Assembly (NCBI GenBank): GCA_964491925.1
Contig: CAZBGZ010000001.1
Location: forward strand, 701-64,700
DNA length: 64,000 bases
Reading direction: 5' to 3'
From: an uncultured Candidatus Saccharibacteria bacterium
Lineage (GTDB): Bacteria > Patescibacteriota > Saccharimonadia > Saccharimonadales > JAGQNJ01
Part shown: piece after piece, positions 11,768-34,993 of the stretch
Numbering within the stretch: position 1 is the first letter of the stretch
Layout: the number at the start of each line of letters is the position of its first letter
The notes under the pieces: model-generated
What the model was told of the DNA's origin: nothing
The model's input: the letters and a program-made list of their open reading frames with translations, nothing else
Database searches by the model: none
Translations under genes and position numbers: made by a program

Positions 11768-13528
11768 TTAGCGTTCGTGGATTTTAAGATACCGTTCATA
11801 AGCATCGAGGCCACCGTACTCTTTGACATTTTTTACTTTACCAGCCTCAACTACATAAATTGTGTCCATAGCCGAAAGTAGCGAATGTTTGTGCGTGACC
11901 ATCAACACCGTCTTGCCTTTCATTAGTGAATTTATACCTTCAAGCACCTTGTTCTCGGATGCAGCGTCCTGTGCAGAGGTTGGCTCGTCTAGTATCAAAA
12001 TTGGCGCCCTTTTAAACATCGCCCTAGCTACCGCAATGCGCTGTTTTTGGCCACCGCTCAGAGAATCACCACTGTTGTCAACCATTGTGTCATATTTTTC
12101 AGGTAACTTGTCTATAAATTCTGACGCATTAGCAGCCGATGCGGCACCCATTACTTCAGGCAGTGGATATTGCTCATCGGGTCTGGCGAATCCAATATTT
12201 TCACCGATGGATATGGAGAATAACTTTGGCTCTTGGCTAACAATAGCAATCTGCTCTCGCAAACTCTTCAAGTTAATGGTGCTAGTATCTTTGCCGTCTA
12301 AATACACAAATCCTTTCTCTTGAATACCAAAACGTGGGACAAGGCTAACAAGCGTGCTCTTGCCTGCGCCACTAGGGCCGATGAATCCAACTTTCTCACC
12401 GGGCTTAATATCTAGATTGACTCCATCCAATACGGTCTTATCTCCGTATCTAAAAGTAACGTTCCTAAAGTTTAACTGCCCGCGTGCTTTATCTAAAACT
12501 TCTCCTGTATTCGTATTCTCGATGTCAGAATGGTCATTGATTACCTCGAAAAACTTTTTGGCGCGGGCATGGTCATCCCTGCGTTGAGCAATAGCGGATG
12601 TTAGCTGTTGCAAAGGTTCGTAAAGTTGCGTTACGTATGATATAAACACTAACAAAATACCAAAGCTCAGCTGACCATTAAACACCTTTTGACCACCAAC
12701 AATAAAAACTGTTAGTGTCGACCCGACTACAACCAGATTGCCGCTAAATCCAAAAGCGTTTGATAGTACGACTCCCTTTAGATTGAGCTTTTTCATTTGC
12801 AGCAAAAGCCGAGTGAATTTATTTAGTTGTCTTTCTTGGCTATTGAAAGATTGCACAACATCACTCTGCTCAATCGACTCTAAAGTATGGTTGTATATAG
12901 TACTATTCAATGTCTCGACGGCTTGTGACTGTGCTTCTATTCTTTTCCCAAAATAAATTATTGAAAAGTAGAGAAAAGGCACTACGACCAGACTAATCAG
13001 GGTCATCTGAACATTAACAGAAATAAGAATTATTAAAACAAAAACTATACTAACGATTGACGAGATAATTTCAACCGGGCTGCCGACTACAAGACTCCCG
13101 ATCGCGCTCCCCTGCGAGTTCAAACGATACACATAATCACTATTCTCTAACCTGGTGCTGGAACGAAGGGGCAAACTGAGCACGTGTTTCAAAAAAGTTT
13201 GTTCTACCCGTCTTTCAAAATTTTCTGCCAGTATGGTACTGAAATAGTCTGTTATAAAATTAAAAAGTGCTTCGAATAGACCAATAACTACAACAGCTGC
13301 CATCACAACAAGGAGTAGTTGAGGTTGCGTATAATTTTGAAAAAGAGCTGGTGGCGGAATCGTTCCAAAAACACTATCGGCCAAAAACTTCATCGGCCAG
13401 GGGCTGGCCAGCGTAAAACCGATAGCTATCAGCGAGAATACCAGCAGAATGACAATTGTTGGCCATGCTTTTTTGTAATGACTTCTTAGCCACCTCTTAT
13501 ACTGTAAATCATCACTATTCTTTATCAT
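11768..13528 (-). CDS. ABC exporter, fused permease + ATPase (ABCB / bacteriocin-multidrug exporter type, no peptidase domain)
   Basis: 586 aa. An N-terminal six-TM region is followed by Walker A GPSGAGKSTL, signature LSGGQKQR, and Walker B ILILDEPTSA. Confidence 0.85.
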   Translation of the reverse strand: MIKNSDDLQYKRWLRSHYKKAWPTIVILLVFSLIAIGFTLASPWPMKFLADSVFGTIPPPALFQNYTQPQLLLVVMAAVVVIGLFEALFNFITDYFSTILAENFERRVEQTFLKHVLSLPLRSSTRLENSDYVYRLNSQGSAIGSLVVGSPVEIISSIVSIVFVLIILISVNVQMTLISLVVVPFLYFSIIYFGKRIEAQSQAVETLNSTIYNHTLESIEQSDVVQSFNSQERQLNKFTRLLLQMKKLNLKGVVLSNAFGFSGNLVVVGSTLTVFIVGGQKVFNGQLSFGILLVFISYVTQLYEPLQQLTSAIAQRRDDHARAKKFFEVINDHSDIENTNTGEVLDKARGQLNFRNVTFRYGDKTVLDGVNLDIKPGEKVGFIGPSGAGKSTLVSLVPRFGIQEKGFVYLDGKDTSTINLKSLREQIAIVSQEPKLFSISIGENIGFARPDEQYPLPEVMGAASAANASEFIDKLPEKYDTMVDNSGDSLSGGQKQRIAVARAMFKRAPILILDEPTSAQDAASENKVLEGINSLMKGKTVLMVTHKHSLLSAMDTIYVVEAGKVKNVKEYGGLDAYERYLKIHER

Positions 13529-13554: not shown

Positions 13555-14166
13555 TCAACCACCGAAAAGACTTTTTTGTAATATAATCCTGCCTTTATTG
13601 AAATATTCAGTTTTAAGTGCCTTAATTAACTTTGACCTATCAACCTCGAAAAGGTCATACCCATTTTTAGCAAAGTTTTTCACCGCCGCTTTATCCGCAT
13701 AAAAATGAATAGCGACACCATTTTCCTCTAAGCTCTTGTGGCTATTTATCAGTAATCTCAGTTGGTCATCATAATCCATAAAGTTGAGCAAAATGTGTGA
13801 ATAAACAAAATCAAACTTTTTTGGAAGTTTTTTGCGACAATCAAACAATACTACTTCTTTTTGATTTTTAAGATGAGTAATATTTATGTCGTAGATAGTT
13901 ATATCTGGCTGTATTCCCGCGATACATCCGATTAGTGGATAGTACAGTGGTATATACCGTTTATCTCCTGCTCCTAAAATCGCCCATTGGTTATGGTCCA
14001 AGGTAGTCTTTATTTGATACTTTTCAAAAACCATTTGCAGCTCGTCGGTTTTATCTTCCATTTCTTTCAGGATAATTCTGTATGGATCAGAAGCCAGTCT
14101 AGCGTGATAATCAGAGTATCCTCTGTTTTTATATAGTCTATATTTGTAGTTTGTTAATAAACTCAT
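13555..14166 (-). CDS. class I SAM-methyltransferase-like protein
   Basis: 203 aa. WAILGAGDKR (motif I-like), ITIYDIN (acidic motif II), FDFVYSHILLNFM, and LEENGVAIHF. Sits between TM paralog A and the ABC exporter on the same strand. Confidence 0.45.
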   Translation of the reverse strand: MSLLTNYKYRLYKNRGYSDYHARLASDPYRIILKEMEDKTDELQMVFEKYQIKTTLDHNQWAILGAGDKRYIPLYYPLIGCIAGIQPDITIYDINITHLKNQKEVVLFDCRKKLPKKFDFVYSHILLNFMDYDDQLRLLINSHKSLEENGVAIHFYADKAAVKNFAKNGYDLFEVDRSKLIKALKTEYFNKGRIILQKSLFGG

Positions 14167-14178
14167 AAATAATCTGCT

Positions 14179-14517
14179 TTATTTAGTTATCAGCATTCCT
14201 GCGACCAATAGATATGTTTCTGTTAGTTTTGTTATGTAAAAAACATGGTGACCAGTGAGCCGAAAATTAAAGACTCGTGCACTAATAGCCGTGTAATATT
14301 CTAGCAATCTTGGCAAAACACCAATTCTTTGCTGGGTTTTGGTAAATATACACCCCTTAAAAAATATCCGATGCATTTCGTAAAGCAAGACAAACAATAT
14401 TACATAATTCAAAGACGCGACAAAAGTCAGGATTAACACGGGTAACCAGATAACAATATGAAGCCAAAATAATGCCTCGAACATGAAAGCTTTAATAAAT
14501 TCAGTCATTACTCTCAT
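14179..14517 (-). CDS. small multi-TM protein, paralog A (G-C-x-F-T-[KR]-x-Q-Q-[KR]-x-G motif family)
   Basis: 112 aa. About 40% identical to 18235..18612 (hand count, 40 of ~97 positions, essentially gapless). Shared motifs are FW.H.V.WLPV and FxGC.FT..QQ..G.LP. Confidence 0.6.
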   Translation of the reverse strand: MRVMTEFIKAFMFEALFWLHIVIWLPVLILTFVASLNYVILFVLLYEMHRIFFKGCIFTKTQQRIGVLPRLLEYYTAISARVFNFRLTGHHVFYITKLTETYLLVAGMLITK

Positions 14518-14606: not shown

Positions 14607-15683
14607 ATGAGCGTCATAGACATTAGAGATGTGCGTAAATCCTATGGAAGTGGGGACGCAAAAACAGAAATCCTAAAAGGGGTTAGCCTGTCTATTGAAC
14701 CTGGTGAATTTGTGGCAATAACTGGTCCTAGCGGGTCTGGTAAATCTACACTAATGAATATAATAGGATTACTGGATACCCCGGATAGTGGCTATTACAA
14801 ACTCAGTGATCTAGAAGTGCATTCTAGCAAACAATCTTCCCTTGCAAAGTTACGACTGCGGTATATTGGTTTCATTTTTCAAAGTTTCAATCTTATAGCA
14901 GGACTAAACGCTATCGAAAACGTAGAACTTCCTATGATTTATGCCAAAGTTAAACACCGAGCAAGACGTCAGCGCGCCTTCGATTTACTAACCATGGTCG
15001 GTATTGCAGAGCGGGCAAAAAATAAACCGAATCAACTTTCGGGGGGTCAAATGCAGCGGGTTGCTATCGCCCGATCACTTGTGAATAGCCCACAGATTAT
15101 TCTGGCAGACGAACCGACAGGCAATCTAGACAGTCAAACTGGCTCGGCCGTGATGGAAATACTCAAACAATTAAATTCTCAAGGAACAACAATTGTCATG
15201 ATTACACATGACCCCACCATCGCTAGGCAGGCTAACCGAATAATAAATATCAGCGACGGGACAATAACCCAACCACAACAACAAGTTACTCAGCCCGTAT
15301 CAAAACCCTTACCCACGCCAAGGGCTGCAGTTGAAGCGAATTCCCCGTCAGCCCCCGCTCCGCCTGCACTTGTCGTAGCCACAACATTGCCGCAGACGGC
15401 ACCAATCCAACAACCTCCAATAGCTCCAACAAAGCAACAGCCCGCTCCACCACCTGCTGTGACTAGTCCTGCTGTTTTTCCTGCCCAGCGTCGTATTTAT
15501 GTCGCCCCACCAACTAAAAACCCGCCATCCGCGCCTCAACCAATGGCCGTACAGGTTAATATTCCAACACTACCAGCACCAGCACCACCTCCGCTACCTC
15601 CTCGTGATTCAGATATATTAATAGAAGATGACGGCGAGGTAGTAGTAGCAATTAATCACCAAAACCCGGAAGGGGCAAACTAG
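14607..15683 (+). CDS. ABC transporter ATP-binding protein (MacB/LolD/FtsE-type) with a ~130-aa Pro-rich C-terminal tail
   Basis: Walker A GPSGSGKSTL, Q-loop, LSGGQMQRVAIAR, and ILADEPTGNLD. The tail is PAPPALV...QQPPIAPTKQQPAPPPA...PAPAPPPLPP. Confidence 0.85.
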   Translation: MSVIDIRDVRKSYGSGDAKTEILKGVSLSIEPGEFVAITGPSGSGKSTLMNIIGLLDTPDSGYYKLSDLEVHSSKQSSLAKLRLRYIGFIFQSFNLIAGLNAIENVELPMIYAKVKHRARRQRAFDLLTMVGIAERAKNKPNQLSGGQMQRVAIARSLVNSPQIILADEPTGNLDSQTGSAVMEILKQLNSQGTTIVMITHDPTIARQANRIINISDGTITQPQQQVTQPVSKPLPTPRAAVEANSPSAPAPPALVVATTLPQTAPIQQPPIAPTKQQPAPPPAVTSPAVFPAQRRIYVAPPTKNPPSAPQPMAVQVNIPTLPAPAPPPLPPRDSDILIEDDGEVVVAINHQNPEGAN

Positions 15684-15687
15684 CGAT

Positions 15688-16896
15688 ATGTTATTGCAGA
15701 ATTTTCGACTGGCCCTAATTAGTATTAGCCGAAATAAACTACGTTCGCTATTAACAATGCTAGGGATGATTATTGGCATCGGGGCGGTAGTAACGGTAAT
15801 TAGTATTGGCGATGGGCTCAAAGCCCAGGTAAAAAAAGAAGTTGACGCACTTGGGGTCAACCTGATAACGATTTCCCCTCAACCAGAAGGAGAACCTCTA
15901 ACACAGGCAGATGTCGAGACAGTTAGATCTAATGAGTTTATCCAGCAGGTTGCACCGACTACTTATGTGGATGCTGTGCCATCGAATGGGCAGATAAAAG
16001 ATGATACAGCCATAATTAATGCTACCCAGCCCAGAATGAGCGACATTATAAGCCAAAAAGTTCAAAATGGGCGGTTTTTCAACGACGGCGAAAAAGATGT
16101 AGTGGTACTGGGAGCAAGTGTCGCTACAACCTTGTATGGCCAAGAAAATCCTGTTGGGAAAAAACTGTTGTTAAAACAAGAATTTACCGACATCAATACT
16201 TTGGAACCAAAGGTTATTAAACAAGAATTTACCGTTATAGGAAATTATGAAAAATTATCAGAAAAAACCAGCATTGGGCCTGGCGCACAATTGGACACAA
16301 CCCTGTATATACCCCTAGAAAACGCAAAAACTTTTAATGACAATAAAATATTTATCGACCAGATCAGTGCTCAGGCAAAATCATCAGACCAGCTAGGCCA
16401 GGCGAAAACAAGTTTGACTGCAGCCCTTAAAGCAAAGCACAAAGACAAAGAAGATTTCACAATTCAGTCGTCCGAAGATGTATCAAAAAGCTTTGATGAG
16501 ATTTTGAATGTCGTTACAAACTTTATCACTGCTATTGCAGCAATTTCCCTACTGGTTGGTGGCATTGGCATAATGAATATAATGCTAACATCTGTCACAG
16601 AGCGCACGCGCGAGATCGGTATTCGCAAATCAATAGGTGCATCACAGATAGCTATAATGACGCAGTTTTTAACAGAGGCCCTTGTACTAACTTGCATGGG
16701 GGGGATTCTTGGTATTTTCGCGGCTTATCTAATGAGCTTTATCGTAAAACGTTACGCAGACATAACACCAGTATTCACATTCAGAGCGTTTTTAATCGCC
16801 GTTGGGGTCTCGATTTTGATCGGTGTTATATTCGGTGCAGCCCCAGCTCTCAAGGCTGCCCGCAAAAAACCTATCGAAGCCCTCCGCCACGAATAA
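15688..16896 (+). CDS. ABC transporter permease, FtsX/MacB family
   Basis: 402 aa. N-terminal TM, a large extracytoplasmic domain, and a C-terminal FtsX-like 3-TM bundle (TERTREIGIRKSIGAS motif). Confidence 0.85.
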   Translation: MLLQNFRLALISISRNKLRSLLTMLGMIIGIGAVVTVISIGDGLKAQVKKEVDALGVNLITISPQPEGEPLTQADVETVRSNEFIQQVAPTTYVDAVPSNGQIKDDTAIINATQPRMSDIISQKVQNGRFFNDGEKDVVVLGASVATTLYGQENPVGKKLLLKQEFTDINTLEPKVIKQEFTVIGNYEKLSEKTSIGPGAQLDTTLYIPLENAKTFNDNKIFIDQISAQAKSSDQLGQAKTSLTAALKAKHKDKEDFTIQSSEDVSKSFDEILNVVTNFITAIAAISLLVGGIGIMNIMLTSVTERTREIGIRKSIGASQIAIMTQFLTEALVLTCMGGILGIFAAYLMSFIVKRYADITPVFTFRAFLIAVGVSILIGVIFGAAPALKAARKKPIEALRHE

Positions 16897-16969
16897 ACAA
16901 ATCCGTAAATTGCTTATTTAGGTTTATGTAAGATTAAATTGTTTCTAGTACTAAAGGAGGGAACAACAA

Positions 16970-17098
16970 ATGCCAGGAGACACACGTTTAGATCAACGGC
17001 CAGGAACTGTACGACGAAGACGCTTCGCGGTCCAAGGTAGGCGTAATCTAGCCCAGGCGCGGGTCAATAGTAGCACCGTGAACAGGTCAGGTGTATAG
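16970..17098 (+). CDS. small Arg-rich ORF, 42 aa (MPGDTRLDQRPGTVRRRRFAVQGRRNLAQARVNSSTVNRSGV), family copy U3
   Basis: Hand-found. A strong SD (AAAGGAGGG) ends 8 nt upstream of the ATG, and the ORF lies 73 nt downstream of the FtsX permease on the same strand. Homologous in frame to 11280..11393. Confidence 0.45.
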   Translation: MPGDTRLDQRPGTVRRRRFAVQGRRNLAQARVNSSTVNRSGV

Positions 17099-17290
17099 CG
17101 ATCAGATTTTCGTAGAGCAAACATTCAGGGATGGTAACCGATGCAGTGGTGCGAGTGGTACAAAAGAAAATATTAGATATTAGTCATTAAACGACTGCCT
17201 CACCGTATGTATTTCGTACCTATATCCTTTGCAAAAACTGAATAGTGCCCTCTGACTATTCAAATCGATGCTAATTTAGTAATTTCAAGC

Positions 17291-17623
17291 TTATGTCTCG
17301 CGAATAATAGCAACGAGCATCGGAAATGCTGTGATAACATAAAAAATAACAGATGACCAGTAGTAATTCGGTCTTACTTTTGTGATTTTCTCAATAACAT
17401 AAGGTATAAATTCTGTTTCTTTCGGAACAAATCCGAGTTTTTGCTGTAACCTAGTAATTGCACACCCCCCGAAAAGGAGTAAATGTAACTGAATTGCAAG
17501 CATAGCAATAACAACCGACTCTAAACTATAGAAAAAACCACTAACAAAATACCACGTCATCAGTCCTAAGTGAATCCAAAAAACAATGTAATTTACAATC
17601 CTGTACAAGTGTCTCTTGTTCAT
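17291..17623 (-). CDS. small multi-TM protein, paralog B (divergent member of the GC..T..QQ..G family)
   Basis: 110 aa. FGGCAITRLQQKLGFVP aligns with FKGCIFTKTQQRIGVLP (paralog A) and FEGCVFTRIQQKMGILP (paralog C). Confidence 0.55.
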   Translation of the reverse strand: MNKRHLYRIVNYIVFWIHLGLMTWYFVSGFFYSLESVVIAMLAIQLHLLLFGGCAITRLQQKLGFVPKETEFIPYVIEKITKVRPNYYWSSVIFYVITAFPMLVAIIRET

Positions 17624-17635
17624 TATGCCCCTTTA

Positions 17636-17664
17636 TTGACTCGCCATACCGCTTCAGCTATAGT
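17636..17664 (+). promoter_or_regulatory. sigma70-like promoter TTGACT-N17-TATAGT for the 76-aa basic ORF
   Basis: -35 element at 17636-17641, a 17-nt spacer, and -10 element at 17659-17664. AAAGGA SD precedes the ATG at 17704. Confidence 0.5.
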
Positions 17665-17703
17665 AGTAGTCAGAACAATACTATAACAAAGGATACTTGA
17701 ATT

Positions 17704-17934
17704 ATGTCATTCGCACAATGGTACTCATTTTACAGAAATAAAGGGTATAACAATAACCAAGCAAATGGGAAAGCAAGGGCAGCCGGTGTCCGCCTACGCA
17801 ATACGAGATACAGGGGCGGTGCAAGTATGAATGTTGACAATATCGGGAGAACCGAGCGTACACAAGCTGGCTACAGGTGGAGATTCCCAAGCGGCAGGGT
17901 AATGACCTACAAGACAAAGATTACACGACCTTAA
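17704..17934 (+). CDS. small basic protein, 76 aa, Asn/Arg/Gly-rich with a G-YRW motif
   Basis: Track ORF with a good promoter and SD. Shares the TRY..(S)(M/S)N ... G.YRW...R pattern with the 43-aa ORF at 18715. Divergent from TM paralog B. Confidence 0.5.
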   Translation: MSFAQWYSFYRNKGYNNNQANGKARAAGVRLRNTRYRGGASMNVDNIGRTERTQAGYRWRFPSGRVMTYKTKITRP

Positions 17935-17945
17935 AACAACAATTT

Positions 17946-18221
17946 TTAAAATAAACTCTCTTTAAAAACCGTTATTTTTGACCTACTCAGGTTATTGTTA
18001 GTGTATTGTAAGTTTTTGTAATCCATTTCAAAGATTGAATATCCTTGTGATTGGTATTTCTCAACGCTTTCCTGATTAGCAAATATATGCACTGCGACAC
18101 CGCCTTGATTGTGGCTTTCTAGTGAAGACCTCGCCAACTGCGTAGTGGTTAGATGTACAGGCAAATTCAAAGATTTGCATATATGCACGATCTATAGTGA
18201 TGACTTTTGAGATTTACGACC
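17946..18221 (-). pseudogene. decayed, 5'-truncated copy of the methyltransferase-like gene
   Basis: The 80-aa track ORF aligns with the C-terminal third of 13555..14166 (GVAVHIFANQESVEKYQSQGYSIFEMD versus GVAIHFYADKAAVKNFAKNGYDLFEVD). Homology continues upstream through an in-frame TAG (GRKSQKSSL*IVHICKSL versus CRKKLPKKFDFVYSHILL) and then stops. Confidence 0.6.
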
Positions 18222-18234
18222 CTAGTGTAAGGTA

Positions 18235-18612
18235 TTGCCAAATGCTAGAATCAAAACAATGAGTAAAGAAAAAGAAATAATTTTCGAAAGCCCAATAAAA
18301 AGCCGGCTTCTATACGAAATTGGTTTTTGGTGGCATTTAGTAGTATGGCTGCCCGTTTATTTACTTCCGTTTATATTACCCCTGAAAACTGGGATAATCG
18401 TATTCGTGTTATATAAGATTCATGTTTTAGTGTTTGAAGGGTGTGTTTTTACTCGCATACAACAAAAGATGGGCATATTGCCATCTGGATTGGATTATTA
18501 TTCTGCTGTGTTCGCTAGAATATTTAAATACCCGTTAAGTCATAGGCAATCCTACTACATTAGCGAACTTACAGATATGTACTTTTTAACAGTTCTTATA
18601 ATCAGCAAATAA
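18235..18612 (+). CDS. small multi-TM protein, paralog C
   Basis: 125 aa from TTG, or 117 aa from the ATG at 18259. About 40% identical to paralog A. Confidence 0.6.
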   Translation: MPNARIKTMSKEKEIIFESPIKSRLLYEIGFWWHLVVWLPVYLLPFILPLKTGIIVFVLYKIHVLVFEGCVFTRIQQKMGILPSGLDYYSAVFARIFKYPLSHRQSYYISELTDMYFLTVLIISK

Positions 18613-18643
18613 GCCCTGTCCGTACTTTAACCAAAAAGCAGGA

Positions 18644-18672
18644 TTGGTATTTTATATAACCACAAGTAATAT
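18644..18672 (+). promoter_or_regulatory. sigma70-like promoter TTGGTA-N17-TAATAT upstream of the 43-aa ORF
   Basis: Hexamers at 18644-18649 and 18667-18672 with a 17-nt spacer. Confidence 0.4.
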
Positions 18673-18714
18673 GTTATTATTACTATGTTTAAAATTAAAA
18701 AGAAAGGAAATAAC

Positions 18715-18846
18715 ATGCCTTACACAGTTAGATACGCTAGAGCAAAACCATCAAATTCCACTGCCTTTGGTTGGGCCTGGGTTAAAGTTGGTACTGGCGC
18801 CAATGGGCTTTACAGGTGGCAAATACGTAGACGCAATGTTAGATAG
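18715..18846 (+). CDS. small cationic Trp-containing ORF, 43 aa (MPYTVRYARAKPSNSTAFGWAWVKVGTGANGLYRWQIRRRNVR)
   Basis: Hand-found, in a different frame from track ORF 18644..18859. SD AAAGGAAA lies upstream of the ATG. Shares the 9-mer TACAGGTGG (YRW) with the 76-aa ORF. Confidence 0.45.
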   Translation: MPYTVRYARAKPSNSTAFGWAWVKVGTGANGLYRWQIRRRNVR

Positions 18847-18981
18847 AAATACGCTATGAACCTAAGCTGAACGTATTCAGGAATGTATGTTCTATTATAT
18901 AAGTAGCTAGTTGTTATTTGAATAACTGCCTCGGGTTGCTCTCTTGCTCGAACATTTGTAGTTTCAAATTTAAAGAAGCAA

Positions 18982-19020
18982 CTATTAAAATATCCTGATT
19001 TGTTCAGGATATTTTAATAG
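18982..19020 (-). terminator. 17-bp perfect hairpin abutting the displaced tRNA-His 3' fragment (probable original tRNA-His terminator)
   Basis: CTATTAAAATATCCTGA / TCAGGATATTTTAATAG arms with a 5-nt loop, ending exactly at the 21-nt repeat. Confidence 0.5.
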
Positions 19021-19041
19021 TGGGGTGGCTGATGGGAATTG
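19021..19041 (-). repeat. exact 21-nt duplicate of the tRNA-His 3' end (att-like direct repeat)
   Basis: TGGGGTGGCTGATGGGAATTG at 19021-19041 is identical to 19209-19229. Confidence 0.9.
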
Positions 19042-19170
19042 GTCACTTCTAGCGACCCCTAAACTTCATCTTTGAAAACAAGTTTTCAAGAGAAGATTTC
19101 CTTGCGACATGCCATTCTGGGCATGTCTCACCCACGACCAGGCCGTGTGTTTATATTCCTATCACTATCT
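19042..19170. repeat. conserved non-coding element, copy C1 (most divergent)
   Basis: Shares with C2 and C3, in the same order: CATCT, the GAAAA-CAAG-TTTTC hairpin (19074-19087), and CACCCACGACC. Confidence 0.5.
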
Positions 19171-19208
19171 ATATTTATAAACCCTGAACAAGACAGGGTT
19201 TATAAATA
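19171..19208 (-). terminator. 15-16 bp perfect hairpin immediately 3' of tRNA-His
   Basis: ATATTTATAAACCCTG / CAGGGTTTATAAATAT arms with a 7-nt loop. Confidence 0.5.
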
Positions 19209-19286
19209 TGGGGTGGCTGATGGGAATTGAACCCACGACCTTCGGTACCACAAACCGACGCTCTAACCAACTGAGCTACAGCCACC
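19209..19286 (-). tRNA. tRNA-His (anticodon GUG) with encoded G-1 and CCA
   Basis: Hand-folded: G-1 plus acceptor GTGGCTG/CAGCCAC, discriminator C, anticodon arm TCGGT-TTGTGGT-ACCGA, T arm GTGGG-TTCAATT-CCCAT. Confidence 0.92.
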
Positions 19287-19348
19287 ATGAACAGAGGTGA
19301 TTATAACTCAGATTAACCTCTGTTACAACTTAAATAATGACTTACTGA

Positions 19349-19557: not shown

Positions 19558-19809
19558 TTAATCCTCGTTTTGTAGTTTCTTCAATGAGTCTTCAATGACT
19601 CGGATATAATGTTCTGCTACATTCTTTTGGTCGCCATAGTTTATAAGTTCGGATAGCTCAAAATAGCCATAGGAATCAAAGTTCAATTCGTGCTCTAAAG
19701 CCCAGCCTATGGCCGAAACCTTCTCGAGAACGGCTTCGCTATCTTTGTTCTCGTTGTACAGATTATACAATGCTTTGAGAATAGTGTAGTGTGGATTTGT
19801 TTTACTCAT
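19558..19809 (-). CDS. hypothetical small acidic protein (83 aa)
   Basis: Track ORF with no recognisable motif. Lies between tRNA-Arg(UCU) and element C2. Confidence 0.45.
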   Translation of the reverse strand: MSKTNPHYTILKALYNLYNENKDSEAVLEKVSAIGWALEHELNFDSYGYFELSELINYGDQKNVAEHYIRVIEDSLKKLQNED

Positions 19810-32494: not shown

Positions 32495-34993
32495 CTATTT
32501 CGCCATTAGGTTGTTTAGTTGGTCTTTCCAGCTTTTTTGGTTAAGCATTTCAAAGTGGAAGTCCATATCAGCACTACCTAGGTCAAGTTCTTGCCAGCTT
32601 TTTTCTATTGCCTGCTCGTTACAAAGGTCAAAAACGCTTTTCTTGTATTCCGAGTCCTCGTTGCCAACTAATTGGTCGCCTTTAGACTCCAGTACATATA
32701 CTTTGTCGTAATCATCTCCCGACTTGTGGCTAGCTAAAAAGTCAGGGTATATTCTGCCTGGCTTCCAGCCCTGTATACGATAATCCTTTTTAGCTTCGTT
32801 TCTGTACCACCATAGGAGCTGGCTCTGGTCGTCCAAATACAAAGCGACAGCCTCCTCAAGCTCGTTTATGTCCTCGCTTGGCACGTAATTGAACAGACTT
32901 CGCTCCAGGTCGTCATCGTGATAGTTTCGTAATCTCTGCCTGCTCCTGACGGTTGCTTTGCTTCTAAGTGGCTTGTCGCTGAGTAGGTAAAACTTCATCT
33001 CGCCACTTTTTAGCATTTTCTTGAATACTGCCTCCGCCAATCTGTCCCGTTCGGCGAACAGAGTCTTTCTGAGGCTCTCTATGACAAATACGAGGTTACT
33101 CGCAACTACTTCTATACCATTAGCCTTAATAAGCGAGGTTATAGCCGCATTTGCAGTCTCGTAAGCAATCCAGGGGTTTGGCACGATGTCTACTATTTGT
33201 CTGGCTACATATTCGGTATCAACTTCCGATTCGTAGCTGAGTTCTTTTTCTTTTCTGGACAGTGGTTTGCCGTCTGCATCAAGCCCTACAGCTATCGTAA
33301 TATCATCTACGGTTCGGTTTTCCAGACTTAATTCGGATATAGCTGAGAGGTCGGCTTTGTCCCAGTCTATCTGGCTCAATATATCGGTACTGTAGCGTAC
33401 TTCTCGCCAATCCCGCCCGTCATTTACGGCAAAGAAGGGTAGGTACACTTTGCCTGCAAACTTTTTGAACTTGTCTTGGTACTCTATCGGCTTTTCGTCC
33501 AGGTAATCAGGGTTGGTTTCCTCGTTTGTATCTACGGCTATACGTCCTGCCAAGTCGCCAAGCCCCTCGCCCTCAAGGTTTTGTTTAATGCCTTTAACCA
33601 GTTTGGTCGTATCGTGCTGGAAACTGTACACGTAGCACTCGTCCAGCTCAGTTACACCTGTCTTTTTGGCGTATGGCTGCCTAAGTACACGTCCGATAAG
33701 CTGTGTCATTGCCGTTTCGGATTGTGATTTGGTCAAACTACATAGCACATAGGCGAATGGGCAGTCCCAACCTTCCTGTAACGCCTGTTTGGTTATGATA
33801 AACCGTATCGGACAACCTTGCTCAAGCAAGTCTATACCCTCAATGTCGTCTTTCTCGGTAGATTTTATGGCGATTTGTTCCTCTGGTACGCCCGCCTGTT
33901 TCATCAGGTATTCTTTAACGTCCTCTGCGTGGATATACACTCCGTCCCGTTGGTCTTTGCCTGTACGTTCCACCTGCACGAGCATTATCGGGCGTATGTA
34001 ATTATTGGTGTTCTGTTCGTATTCTTTGGCGATTTCCTGCAATTTGCCTAAATAGTTAGTAGCGTCGGCGACGGTTTCTTTCCAGCCTACGGTCGTTTTG
34101 TTGACCAGGTGCAGGTCTAGTTTAATCATCTGTTCGTCGTTCAGCTCTTTGCCTGTTATCTCTACCAGTTTATTGGCTGATTCTGGGGGAGTTGCGGACA
34201 GCTCCAGCAAGAATGACGGGTTAAAGCCTGCGATAGTGTCTCTTGCAGTTGGGCTGTACGCCTTATGACCTTCGTCAATGATGGTTATTGGTTTGAGTAA
34301 CCGAAGTACGTTACCAAGTGAAGTTTTAGGTAAGTTGCCCCACATATAGCCCTCCGCTCCAAAGGTATCAAGATTCGGTACTTGCTCCAGCAGGCGGGTT
34401 TGGAGCTTATAGGCGTCCTCGGCTGGGAAAAACTCGGTATAACCAGTGTTGTCTTTGAATACTTTTAGTGTTTCCTTGCTTTGTCTGGAAGCAGAAGGGA
34501 GCATCAGAAGCATCACGCATAGATTTTCGGCTACGTCATCAGGTGTAAAGCGGTCTAGTTTTTCAAGGATTAAGGTTTTACCACCACTGCTTACGTCTAG
34601 CACTTGTCTGTAAGGGTGTTGTCGGTCTCGCAGGTTATTGAGTGTCTGACGGTATATCTGGGTGGTTGGCACAATCCAAAGCACCATACCGTTCTGCTTA
34701 TTCAGATATACCTTGTTTATTAGGTCAATGCTGTGGCAAGCAAGCAGGGTTTTACCACCGCCTGTCGGTACTTTCAGGTACATATTTGGTACAGGTTCGC
34801 CGATACCGTTAAACGTCTTTTTGTAACTGTCTAGCCCTATTTCTTTCCAGGCTTTAGCAGGAAAATGTATGTCATTAGCAAGTTCAGCGTCTGCCTCTTT
34901 GACCCGTTCGTAGCGTTCTCGTTGTTCTACCAGGGCGGTAAGATAGCCCGATAGTGCTTGAGTTACCTTTTTTTGGTATTCTCTAAGCTCCAT
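32495..34993 (-). CDS. res: Type III restriction enzyme, Res subunit (SF2 helicase + PD-(D/E)xK nuclease)
   Basis: Motif I VPTGGGKTLLA, motif II IIDEGHKAY, and a C-terminal YPDFLA...VYVLESKGD nuclease motif. There is a 2-nt gap after mod. Confidence 0.85.
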   Translation of the reverse strand: MELREYQKKVTQALSGYLTALVEQRERYERVKEADAELANDIHFPAKAWKEIGLDSYKKTFNGIGEPVPNMYLKVPTGGGKTLLACHSIDLINKVYLNKQNGMVLWIVPTTQIYRQTLNNLRDRQHPYRQVLDVSSGGKTLILEKLDRFTPDDVAENLCVMLLMLPSASRQSKETLKVFKDNTGYTEFFPAEDAYKLQTRLLEQVPNLDTFGAEGYMWGNLPKTSLGNVLRLLKPITIIDEGHKAYSPTARDTIAGFNPSFLLELSATPPESANKLVEITGKELNDEQMIKLDLHLVNKTTVGWKETVADATNYLGKLQEIAKEYEQNTNNYIRPIMLVQVERTGKDQRDGVYIHAEDVKEYLMKQAGVPEEQIAIKSTEKDDIEGIDLLEQGCPIRFIITKQALQEGWDCPFAYVLCSLTKSQSETAMTQLIGRVLRQPYAKKTGVTELDECYVYSFQHDTTKLVKGIKQNLEGEGLGDLAGRIAVDTNEETNPDYLDEKPIEYQDKFKKFAGKVYLPFFAVNDGRDWREVRYSTDILSQIDWDKADLSAISELSLENRTVDDITIAVGLDADGKPLSRKEKELSYESEVDTEYVARQIVDIVPNPWIAYETANAAITSLIKANGIEVVASNLVFVIESLRKTLFAERDRLAEAVFKKMLKSGEMKFYLLSDKPLRSKATVRSRQRLRNYHDDDLERSLFNYVPSEDINELEEAVALYLDDQSQLLWWYRNEAKKDYRIQGWKPGRIYPDFLASHKSGDDYDKVYVLESKGDQLVGNEDSEYKKSVFDLCNEQAIEKSWQELDLGSADMDFHFEMLNQKSWKDQLNNLMAK

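What the first reader, a model, noticed from the sequence alone, without database searches (positions are those of the whole stretch)
17636..18846. 'YRW' cationic mini-proteins, each paired with a TM paralog and each with its own promoter
The 76-aa ORF (17704-17934) has TTGACT-N17-TATAGT and an AAAGGA SD, and is divergent from TM paralog B. The hand-found 43-aa ORF (18715-18846) has TTGGTA-N17-TAATAT and an AAAGGAAA SD, and lies downstream of TM paralog C.

The two share the pattern (T/V)RY.R....(S)N ... G.YRW.....R, including an identical 9-mer TACAGGTGG. Both are very basic and contain Trp/Tyr clusters (GWAWVKVG, YRWRFPSGR), a composition typical of membrane-active cationic peptides. The track ORF 18644-18859 overlapping the 43-aa ORF is in another frame and has no SD, so automated annotation would probably miss or mis-call this gene.
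Basis: seen in the sequence. Interest (0 to 1): 0.55.

Follow-up and report, generated by a model that had tools for sequence, protein, structure and literature searches.

The report
Unannotated small basic proteins beside membrane-protein genes
The 43-codon gene is a real, conserved and mostly unannotated small-protein gene that travels with a novel membrane protein and a methyltransferase-like gene in a few Saccharibacteria. The 76-codon ORF is an orphan and is not detectably related to it by any test run here, so the shared 'YRW' family is not supported.

Summary
The window comes from a Candidatus Saccharibacteria genome.

The two peptides are not detectably related:
- BLASTP finds no alignment.
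- In the shuffle test z = -0.44.
- A profile of the 43-aa family gives the 76-aa ORF 2.1 bits.

The 43-aa ORF is a genuine gene. Uncalled 41- and 44-aa orthologues lie next to the orthologous membrane gene in two other lineages (z = 5 to 12). They share the ribosome-binding site, have promoter-like sites of their own, and vary most at third codon positions.

It belongs to a module of three genes: a 3-TM protein, the mini-protein and a methyltransferase-like protein. The module sits between MacB-type ABC transporter genes and tRNA-His.

More generally, small ORFs that start with MPG and have an SD-like site cluster beside genes of this membrane family: 8 of 14 such ORFs fall in 10.7% of the sequence.

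The 76-aa ORF fills the mini-protein slot of a second, decayed module whose methyltransferase is a pseudogene. It has one weak positional analogue elsewhere.

Function is unknown. My best guess (about 35%) is a leaderless cationic peptide working with a membrane partner and ABC exporters. The peptides fail the structural tests for leaderless bacteriocins.

The parts
18715..18846 (+). p43, a 43-aa small basic protein (MPYTVRYARAKPSNSTAFGWAWVKVGTGANGLYRWQIRRRNVR). It belongs to a conserved 41-44 aa family.
   Evidence: Orthologues are L005:704-829 and L014:2713-2847(-). BLASTP gives E = 2e-6 and shuffle z = 7.8 and 5.0. The in-frame score is highest of all frame pairs, and third codon positions are the least conserved. 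The orthologues start directly at MPG after the SD, which supports ATG 18715 over ATG 18685.
18644..18709 (+). Promoter-like TTGGTA-N17-TAATAT (18644-18672) and the SD AAAGGAA (18703-18709) of p43.
   Evidence: Read from the sequence. Promoter-like pairs and an SD also precede the mini-ORFs read in L005, L016, L024 and L004. For L014 I read the promoter off the alignment row.
17704..17934 (+). p76, a 76-aa basic ORF. It sits in the mini-protein slot of a decayed second module. Whether it is a gene is unresolved.
   Evidence: Only self hits among 5.8 billion proteins. Codon-usage score is 0.081 per codon, better than 97% of spurious ORFs. Similarity to the 81-aa gene in L010 is weak: BLASTP E = 0.015, shuffle p about 0.05. 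It ranks second among non-methyltransferase segments against the methyltransferase N-terminal profile, at E = 0.58.
17636..17693 (+). Promoter-like TTGACT-N17-TATAGT (17636-17664) and the SD AAAGGA (17688-17693) of p76.
   Evidence: 10 of 12 hexamer matches.
16970..17098 (+). p42, a third mini-ORF (MPGDTRLDQRPGTVRRRRFAVQGRRNLAQARVNSSTVNRSGV). It has the SD AAAGGAGGG and is convergent with TM-B.
   Evidence: It was called as a gene in Logan and is listed from NCBI. No homologue was found in the fetched loci.
17291..17623 (-). TM-B, a 110-aa membrane protein of the B type (FGGCAIT motif).
   Evidence: Its nearest relative is P0007 in L010.
18259..18612 (+). TM-C, a 117-aa membrane protein of the C type.
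   Evidence: 66% identical to P0006 and syntenic with L005. The AlphaFold2 model is all-helical, pLDDT 76.7.
17946..18273 (-). Pseudogene fragments of a methyltransferase-like paralogue.
   Evidence: BLASTP against the intact copy gives E = 1e-8. tblastn finds residues about 125-193 at 18173-17946 and residues 29-71 at 18273-18142, the latter with a stop codon.
14179..14517 (-). TM-A, a 112-aa paralogue and the first gene of an apparent TM-A / methyltransferase-like / ABC exporter operon.
13555..14166 (-). MT-A, the intact 203-aa methyltransferase-like protein.
   Evidence: Sub-threshold but consistent class I methyltransferase hits.
11768..13528 (-). MsbA-like ABC exporter (586 aa) downstream of MT-A.
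14607..16896 (+). MacB-type ABC transporter: ATPase (14607-15683) and FtsX/MacB permease (15688-16896).
18981..19041 (.). A perfect 18-bp hairpin (18981-19021) followed by a 20-nt copy of the tRNA-His 3' end (19022-19041).
19209..19285 (-). tRNA-His, the right-hand border of the variable region.

Best explanation
Shown:
- p43 is a genuine small-protein gene of a conserved 41-44 aa family. Conserved features are an MP(G/Y) start, a G(W/F)xW motif and a G..RW motif.
- It is one part of a three-gene module (3-TM membrane protein, mini-protein, class I methyltransferase-like protein). The module lies between MacB-type ABC transporter genes and tRNA-His in a narrow Saccharibacteria clade.
- It looks like a separate transcription unit, with promoter-like hexamers and a strong SD. 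In L005 a hairpin plus T-run lies between it and the convergent methyltransferase-like gene.
- The window holds three copies of the module in different states:
  - A: TM-A and MT-A followed by an ABC exporter, with no mini-ORF.
  - B: TM-B, p42, p76 and a methyltransferase pseudogene, on a 1.36-kb stretch absent from relatives.
  - C: TM-C and p43, with the methyltransferase gene lost.
- p76 occupies the same slot as the mini-protein of L014: divergent from the TM gene and convergent with the methyltransferase-like gene. It is not detectably homologous to p43.

Inferred:
- The mini-proteins are made without a leader, are very basic and are not membrane-spanning.
- They probably act with the membrane protein. 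By the positive-inside rule, its conserved FxGCxxTxxQ loop faces the cytoplasm.
- The methyltransferase-like protein may modify them.

Most likely function (about 35%): leaderless cationic peptides that are handled or exported by the neighbouring ABC systems, with the TM protein as accessory or protective partner.

Next most likely (about 30%): an intracellular small-protein partner of the TM and methyltransferase-like pair.
For: - Orthologues of p43 sit beside the orthologous TM gene: L005:704-829 and L014:2713-2847. BLASTP gives E = 2e-6 and shuffle z = 7.8, 5.0 and 12.4.
- In-frame scores of 63, 48 and 90 exceed every other frame pair (at most 51). Codon identity is 0.48-0.68 at positions 1 and 2 and 0.30-0.39 at position 3.
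- The DNA outside the SD and start codon is poorly conserved.
- Module synteny holds across the window, L005, L010 and L014.
- ORFs of 12 aa or more that start with MPG: 8 of 14 lie within 500 bp of a TM gene, a zone that makes up 10.7% of the sequence. All 8 have an SD-like site. The stricter RBS pattern hits 7 sites, all next to TM genes.
- The TM family is real and wider: 138 clusters.
- TM genes sit in operon-like positions with MsbA-like exporters in the window (gaps of 12 and 26 bp) and in L019 (4-bp overlap).
- The methyltransferase-like assignment rests on 3 of 4 members hitting Methyltransf_11, one hitting CheR at 9e-4, and the best PDB matches being methyltransferases.
Against: - There is no evidence of expression or translation.
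- The p43 family has only three clear members, because every database scan re-found the same loci.
- p43's own codon usage is uninformative: 0.003 per codon.
- The MacB genes are present in every relative whichever module type it carries, so they may be unrelated housekeeping neighbours.
- The TM family is broad, and some members are fused to VKOR or GDSL-hydrolase domains. That fits an enzymatic or anchoring role better than dedicated immunity.
- The peptides are hydrophilic and rich in G/P/N/S/T, unlike known leaderless bacteriocins.
- All methyltransferase hits are below the curated thresholds.
Confidence: 0.55

Rival explanations
1. One reading: p76 and p43 are paralogous 'YRW' cationic, membrane-active peptides, each with a TM paralogue as its immunity partner.
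For: - Both are very basic and aromatic-rich, with pI about 11.6-11.9.
- Each lies next to a TM paralogue.
- p76 occupies the same slot as the mini-protein of L014.
- The regex G.{1,2}RW.[ILVF].{2,3}R hits only these two ORFs in the window.
- The p76 segment RTQAGYRWRFPSGR aligns with RTSNGLSRWRLTGGR of L014.
Against: - No BLASTP alignment.
- Shuffle z = -0.44.
- 2.1 bits against the family profile.
- The C-terminal profile does not find p76.
- YRW is not conserved among the p43 orthologues.
- p76 lacks both the MPG start and the GWxW motif.
- The regex was written after seeing both ORFs.
Confidence: 0.2
2. p76 is a by-product of rearrangement and not a functional gene. On this view its promoter, SD and first 20 or so codons come from the 5' end of the disrupted methyltransferase-like paralogue, and the rest is read-through into unrelated sequence.
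For: - The methyltransferase-like gene of the B module survives only as fragments right next to p76.
- p76 residues 7-20 (YSFYRNKGYNNNQA) resemble the methyltransferase N-terminus YSYFKRKGYSHYHA (tblastn E = 0.07).
- p76 ranks second of about 3,270 non-methyltransferase segments against the methyltransferase N-terminal profile.
- p76 is an orphan.
- The whole B module lies on a stretch absent from L003 and L005.
Against: - The profile hit is E = 0.58, which is not significant.
- No inverted repeats mark any breakpoints.
- Codon usage is gene-like.
- The ORF begins at the second codon of its open frame (frame 17701-17931, ATG at 17704), with a good promoter-like site and an SD.
- L010 has an 81-aa gene with a similar N-terminus next to a B-type TM gene while its own methyltransferase-like gene is intact.
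Confidence: 0.3
3. The MPG mini-ORFs are regulatory leader peptides or upstream ORFs. What is conserved is the RBS and start region, not a protein product.
For: - The RBS and start context AAGGAAA(T/C)AAAA-ATGCCNGG is the best-conserved part.
- Two tiny proline-rich ORFs lie about 80-105 nt upstream of, and on the same strand as, a Mur-ligase-like gene: L004:2765-2839 (MPGGKIIHTGPKGPPPPKTPRPRE) and L024:2095-2145 (MPGYKPPKKIPRPPRE).
Against: - p43 and its orthologues have no downstream gene on the same strand. Two of the three are convergent with the methyltransferase-like gene, with a hairpin plus T-run between them in L005.
- Their whole length is conserved at the amino-acid level, with a third-position signature.
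Confidence: 0.1
4. The mini-proteins are intracellular small basic proteins that bind nucleic acid or the ribosome, and their position next to the TM gene is incidental.
For: pI is 10.5-11.9, with no hydrophobic segment, strong SD sites, and tRNA genes close by.
Against: - Adjacency to the TM gene survives inversions and rearrangements in six loci.
- No match to any ribosomal or nucleic-acid-binding family in Pfam, NCBIfam or the PDB.
- Divergence between lineages is very fast, which is unusual for ribosome components.
Confidence: 0.1

Closest known systems
Leaderless bacteriocin loci (lacticin Q lnqQBCDEF, aureocin A53)
   Same: - A short (about 40-55 aa) cationic, Trp-containing peptide is made without a leader.
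- The gene is its own unit, next to small membrane proteins and an ABC transporter that serve secretion and immunity (PMC6131525, read).
   Different: - Known members form amphipathic helices around a hydrophobic core (saposin-like, or the single helix of LsbB). The multi-peptide members whose table rows I saw have positive GRAVY.
- The peptides here have GRAVY of -0.7 to -1.1, 33-55% G/P/N/S/T and only 20-37% hydrophobic residues.
- No sequence family match was found.
- Those loci have no methyltransferase-like partner.
Arg/Trp-rich and proline-rich antimicrobial peptides (lactoferricin, indolicidin, apidaecin or oncocin types; from my own knowledge, not tested here)
   Same: - Composition is similar: RW clusters in p43 and p76, and PRP motifs in the tiny ORFs of L004 and L024.
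- All are small and strongly positively charged.
   Different: - Those are eukaryotic host-defence peptides cut from precursors.
- The resemblance is compositional only. No homology was found and no activity was tested.
Bacterial small proteins that regulate membrane proteins (MgrB, AcrZ, MntS, SgrT; from my own knowledge)
   Same: They are under 50 aa, are often missed by annotation, are encoded next to or act on a membrane protein, and have their own promoter.
   Different: - Most of them are single-pass hydrophobic helices.
- There is no sequence relationship, and no interaction was shown here.
RiPP precursor plus tailoring methyltransferase
   Same: A small peptide gene lies next to a methyltransferase-like gene and ABC exporters.
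   Different: - There is no leader/core architecture: conservation spans the whole p43 peptide.
- No recognised RiPP enzyme or recognition element was found.
- The methyltransferase assignment is below threshold.

Membership tests
   No BLASTP alignment. Shuffle z = -0.44. 2.1 bits against the family profile. The C-terminal profile does not find p76.
   The orthologues have KRW (L005) and SRW (L014). Only R34 and W35 are invariant.
p43 small-protein family (defined here) | Syntenic orthologues with significant similarity along the whole length and matching start and stop | tested here: met
p43 small-protein family (defined here) | Signature of selection on the protein: the reading frame scores best and third codon positions are most variable | tested here: met
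p43 small-protein family (defined here) | Evidence that the ORF is translated | not testable with these tools
   No Ribo-seq or proteomics data were available.
Leaderless bacteriocins (aureocin A53 / lacticin Q type) | No leader peptide; cationic | tested here: met
   The ORF starts right after the SD, and the orthologues start at the same residue. pI is 10.5-11.9.
Leaderless bacteriocins (aureocin A53 / lacticin Q type) | Amphipathic helices with a hydrophobic core (saposin-like or LsbB-like); net hydrophobic composition | tested here: not met
   GRAVY is -0.69 to -1.14. This is a composition test only; no structure model was made.
Leaderless bacteriocins (aureocin A53 / lacticin Q type) | Sequence match to a described bacteriocin family | tested here: not met
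   Pfam, NCBIfam and PDB searches returned nothing relevant.
Leaderless bacteriocins (aureocin A53 / lacticin Q type) | A dedicated ABC transporter and membrane proteins for secretion and immunity | tested here: inconclusive
   MacB-type and MsbA-like ABC genes are adjacent, but the MacB pair is present whichever module type a genome carries.
Leaderless bacteriocins (aureocin A53 / lacticin Q type) | Antimicrobial activity | not testable with these tools
   This needs peptide assays.
Class I SAM-dependent methyltransferases (for the 203-aa partner) | Profile match above the curated threshold | tested here: inconclusive
   Methyltransf_11 at E = 0.02-0.045 in 3 of 4 members (14.8 bits for MT-A against a cut-off of 21.2). 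One member hits CheR at 9e-4. The best PDB match is phosphoethanolamine N-methyltransferase at E = 0.11. The AlphaFold2 single-sequence model failed, pLDDT 40.
Known anti-phage defence systems (PADLOC) | Any component matches a defence-system profile | tested here: not met
   No hits for any of the nine proteins scanned.
Type I toxin-antitoxin small toxins | A hydrophobic transmembrane peptide | tested here: not met
   The highest Kyte-Doolittle average over 15 residues is 0.5 or less for all mini-proteins.

The most novel reading that the evidence does not exclude
Saccharibacteria carry a fast-evolving set of leaderless 'MPG' cationic peptides. Each would be paired with a previously undescribed Cys/His-bearing 3-TM protein and a methyltransferase-like enzyme, beside ABC exporters in a variable region next to tRNA-His. 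Together these would form a new peptide effector-and-protection system that these epibiotic, reduced-genome bacteria use against hosts or competitors. On this reading p76 would be a divergent member.
Probability: 0.2. Interest if true: 0.75.

Novelty: new variant of a known kind. Interest (0 to 1): 0.45.

Why it matters
Saccharibacteria have tiny genomes and live attached to other bacteria, and how they interact with their hosts is poorly understood. This region shows three things that would give experiments a concrete target:
- a conserved small-protein gene that gene callers mostly miss;
- its repeated pairing with an uncharacterised membrane-protein family and a methyltransferase-like gene;
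- its fast divergence in a variable region next to ABC exporters.

It is also a practical caution: the orthologues in two of three lineages were not annotated. If the peptides turn out to be intracellular partners of the membrane protein, the result is more modest, namely a new small-protein family of unknown role.

Tried and rejected
- Protein searches with both mini-ORFs against 5.8 billion proteins returned only self hits.
- The genome and metagenome scans with the TM alignment added only two loci or re-found known ones.
- Viral contig scans with the TM and p43 alignments found nothing.
- Pfam, NCBIfam and PADLOC gave nothing for the mini-proteins or TM proteins.
- The PDB sequence search with the p43 profile gave only chance-level hits.
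- The AlphaFold2 single-sequence model of MT-A was unusable, pLDDT 40.
- Rfam found nothing in 16800-19300 apart from tRNA-His.
- A p43-profile hit at 34459-34545 (E = 0.003) was rejected. It has no Met and lies antisense inside an 832-aa gene.
- The 61-aa gene in L016 shares the RBS and the MPG start but has no sequence similarity to p43. I treat it as a positional analogue only.
- I considered an inversion scenario for the origin of p76, but no breakpoint repeats were found, so it remains a rival explanation.
- Two literature searches found no description of such peptides in Saccharibacteria.
Full report
**Source and layout**

The closest genome matches are MAGs titled Candidatus Saccharibacteria. 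The same sequence occurs in two Logan contigs.

The gene order around the finding is:

| Coordinates | Strand | Feature |
|---|---|---|
| 11768-13528 | - | MsbA-like ABC exporter |
| 13555-14166 | - | MT-A, 203-aa methyltransferase-like protein |
| 14179-14517 | - | TM-A |
| 14607-15683 | + | MacB-type ATPase |
| 15688-16896 | + | FtsX/MacB permease |
| 16970-17098 | + | p42, 42-aa ORF |
| 17291-17623 | - | TM-B |
| 17704-17934 | + | p76 |
| 17946-18188 | - | 80-aa ORF |
| 18259-18612 | + | TM-C |
| 18715-18846 | + | p43 |
| 18981-19041 | . | hairpin plus partial tRNA-His copy |
| 19209-19285 | - | tRNA-His |

**1. Checking the observation**

- The three TM proteins are true paralogues, 24-41% identical, with invariant FW.H and F.GC..T..QQ motifs.
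- Promoter-like hexamer pairs as a class are not enriched here: 8 found, 8.2 expected. The p76 pair is among the best, with 10 of 12 matches.

The claimed similarity between the two peptides fails every test:

- BLASTP finds no alignment at E <= 100.
- The local alignment score is 24, against 26.2 +/- 4.9 for shuffled sequences.
- A profile of the p43 family gives p76 2.1 bits, confined to YRWRFPSGRV.
- A profile of the C-terminal third does not place p76 in its top 25 hits.
- Only a regex I wrote afterwards, G.{1,2}RW.[ILVF].{2,3}R, singles out these two ORFs in the six-frame translation of the window.

**2. p43 is a real gene**

Both mini-ORFs return only themselves from 5.8 billion predicted proteins. 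That is misleading for p43, because its relatives were never called as genes.

- In the L005-L009 lineage, the TM gene is P0006, 66% identical to TM-C. It is followed by an uncalled 41-aa ORF, MPGAVKFSSVKPTGYKLLPGWYWRQSGGSEYGRKRWVLSKR. That ORF has a promoter-like TTGACA/TAATAT pair and an AAAGGAAA SD.
- In the L014/L015 lineage (TM gene P0008), an uncalled 44-aa ORF, MPGTTKTTMGGPPQGYNILPGFYWKYEGRTSNGLSRWRLTGGRS, lies between the methyltransferase-like gene and the TM gene.

Evidence that these three are homologous and coding:

- BLASTP of p43 against the 41-aa ORF gives E = 2e-6, end to end.
- Shuffle z-scores are 7.8, 5.0 and 12.4.
- The annotated frame scores 63, 48 and 90, while no other frame pair exceeds 51.
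- Codon positions 1 and 2 are 48-68% identical, and position 3 is 30-39% identical.
- The surrounding DNA aligns poorly except at the SD and start codon.
- Invariant residues are M1, P2, P12, G19, W22, G26, G31, R34 and W35.
- The orthologues begin MPG directly after the SD. The 43-aa start at 18715 is therefore right, and the 53-aa call from ATG 18685 is too long.

**3. The module**

All informative relatives share the order FtsX, then {TM gene, mini-ORF, methyltransferase-like gene}, then tRNA-His. Orientations differ:

| Locus | TM gene | Mini-ORF | Methyltransferase-like gene |
|---|---|---|---|
| L005 | + | + | - |
| L014 (flipped) | - | + | - |
| L010 | + (B type) | 81-aa gene, +, upstream of the TM gene | - |

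- The 80-aa ORF 17946-18188 is the C-terminal remnant of a methyltransferase-like paralogue (E = 1e-8). A further fragment with a stop codon lies at 18142-18273.
- DNA comparison shows that window 16897-18257 has no counterpart in L003 or L005, where the C-type TM gene follows FtsX after about 45 bp.
- So the window carries three module copies in different states:
  - A: intact TM gene and methyltransferase-like gene, no mini-ORF.
  - B: TM-B, p42, p76 and a methyltransferase pseudogene.
  - C: TM-C and p43, with the methyltransferase-like gene lost.
- p76 sits where the L014 mini-ORF sits: divergent from the TM gene and convergent with the methyltransferase-like gene.

**4. A wider rule: MPG mini-ORFs**

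- The pattern A[AG]GGA-N3-10-ATGCCN(GG|TA) occurs only 7 times in 111 kb, counting both strands, of the window plus 11 distinct TM-family loci. Every hit is a small ORF beside a TM gene.
- Those hits include p42 in the window, two sites not used to define the pattern (L004:3391 onwards and L024:2803-2853), and a 61-aa gene in L016.
- Counting every ORF of 12 aa or more that starts with MPG, 8 of 14 lie within 500 bp of a TM gene. That zone is 10.7% of the sequence. All 8 have an SD-like site.
- Beyond the first residues the peptides differ completely between lineages. They include 16-24 aa proline-rich versions ending in PRPRE.
- More distant TM loci (L017, L018, L019) have neither an MPG mini-ORF nor a methyltransferase-like gene. 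L025 has no MPG mini-ORF.

**5. p76**

- It is an orphan.
- Its codon usage is gene-like: 0.081 per codon, above 97% of spurious ORFs and near the 5% quantile of real genes.
- It starts at the second codon of its open frame.
- The only analogue is the 81-aa gene upstream of the B-type TM gene in L010. BLASTP gives E = 0.015 over the first 27 residues, and shuffle p is 0.05-0.10.
- Its N-terminus also resembles the N-terminus of the methyltransferase-like proteins: tblastn E = 0.07, and rank 2 of about 3,270 segments at E = 0.58.
- Given the methyltransferase pseudogene next door, it could be a rearrangement chimera.
- I cannot decide between a lineage-specific gene and a by-product.

**6. The partners**

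- The TM family has 138 clusters at E <= 1e-3 among 1.84 billion representatives. It has no Pfam, NCBIfam or PADLOC match.
- Its model is all-helical, with three long helices (pLDDT 76.7). It has no fold match in the PDB.
- Some members are fused to VKOR or to GDSL hydrolases.
- By the positive-inside rule, which is my inference, the conserved Cys-containing loop faces the cytoplasm.
- TM genes are operon-like with MsbA-type exporters in the window and in L019.
- The 203-aa partner gives consistent but sub-threshold class I methyltransferase hits.

**7. Mechanism**

Shown: p43 is conserved and coding, the module is syntenic, and MPG mini-ORFs are associated with TM genes.

Inferred: the mini-proteins are leaderless, hydrophilic and very basic, so they are made in the cytoplasm. 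Four features fit a peptide effector with a membrane partner, which I put at about 35%:
- fast divergence between lineages;
- several copies with decayed partners;
- a position in a variable region next to a tRNA gene, with a duplicated tRNA-His 3' end;
- neighbouring ABC exporters.

An intracellular partner or substrate of the TM and methyltransferase-like pair is nearly as likely, at about 30%.

The peptides fail the compositional and structural criteria of leaderless bacteriocins described in PMC6131525.

**8. Verdict**

- The valuable core is an unannotated small-protein family and its three-gene module in a candidate-phylum bacterium.
- The 'YRW' link between the two ORFs is not supported.
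- Interest is moderate: 0.45.

Noticed in passing
window 16970-17098 (+): A third mini-ORF, p42 (MPGDTRLDQRPGTVRRRRFAVQGRRNLAQARVNSSTVNRSGV). It has a strong SD (AAAGGAGGG), is convergent with TM-B, and shares the MPG start and RBS context of the p43 family. No homologue was found in the fetched loci.
   Followed up: partly
window 19022-19041 and 19210-19229; hairpins at 18981-19021 and 19171-19209: A 20-nt exact direct repeat of the tRNA-His 3' end. Each copy is preceded by a perfect AT-rich hairpin. This looks like an att-type scar of integration or excision at tRNA-His, and it marks the edge of the variable region.
   Followed up: partly
window 17946-18273 (-): A decayed methyltransferase-like paralogue. 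The C-terminal 80 codons are intact as an ORF. A further fragment with a stop codon overlaps the start of TM-C.
   Followed up: yes
window 16897-18257: This 1.36-kb stretch (p42, TM-B, p76 and the methyltransferase pseudogene) has no counterpart in L003 or L005. In those loci the C-type TM gene follows FtsX after about 45 bp. No flanking repeats were found.
   Followed up: partly
P0029, P0042, P0050, P0054, P0063, P0070; P0027, P0052: Some TM-family members are fused C-terminally to a VKOR domain or N-terminally to a GDSL lipase/acylhydrolase domain. This hints that the TM module has a general enzymatic or anchoring role.
   Followed up: partly
L004:2765-2839(-), L024:2095-2145(-), L024:2803-2853(-): Tiny ORFs of 16-24 aa with an MPG start, proline- and lysine-rich, ending in PRPRE or RPPRE. 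Those read at sequence level have promoter-like and SD sites. Two lie about 80-105 nt upstream of a Mur-ligase-like gene on the same strand, so they could be leader peptides.
   Followed up: no
window 15280-15683 (+): The MacB-type ATPase carries a C-terminal extension of about 130 residues rich in Pro, Ala and Gln. The extension is conserved in L003. This is unusual for this kind of ATPase.
   Followed up: no
window 19558-19809 (-): An 83-aa ORF between tRNA-His and tRNA-Arg has the strongest codon-usage score of the small ORFs tested (0.238 per codon). It has no family match, and the L005 lineage has no counterpart to this stretch.
   Followed up: no
L016:262-447(-) and L016:3-248(-): A 61-aa gene with an MPG start and the same RBS lies divergent from the TM gene P0009. 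It is followed by a second small gene with a strong SD (MAGVVPGVGYGGPP...), which is cut off by the end of the contig.
   Followed up: partly
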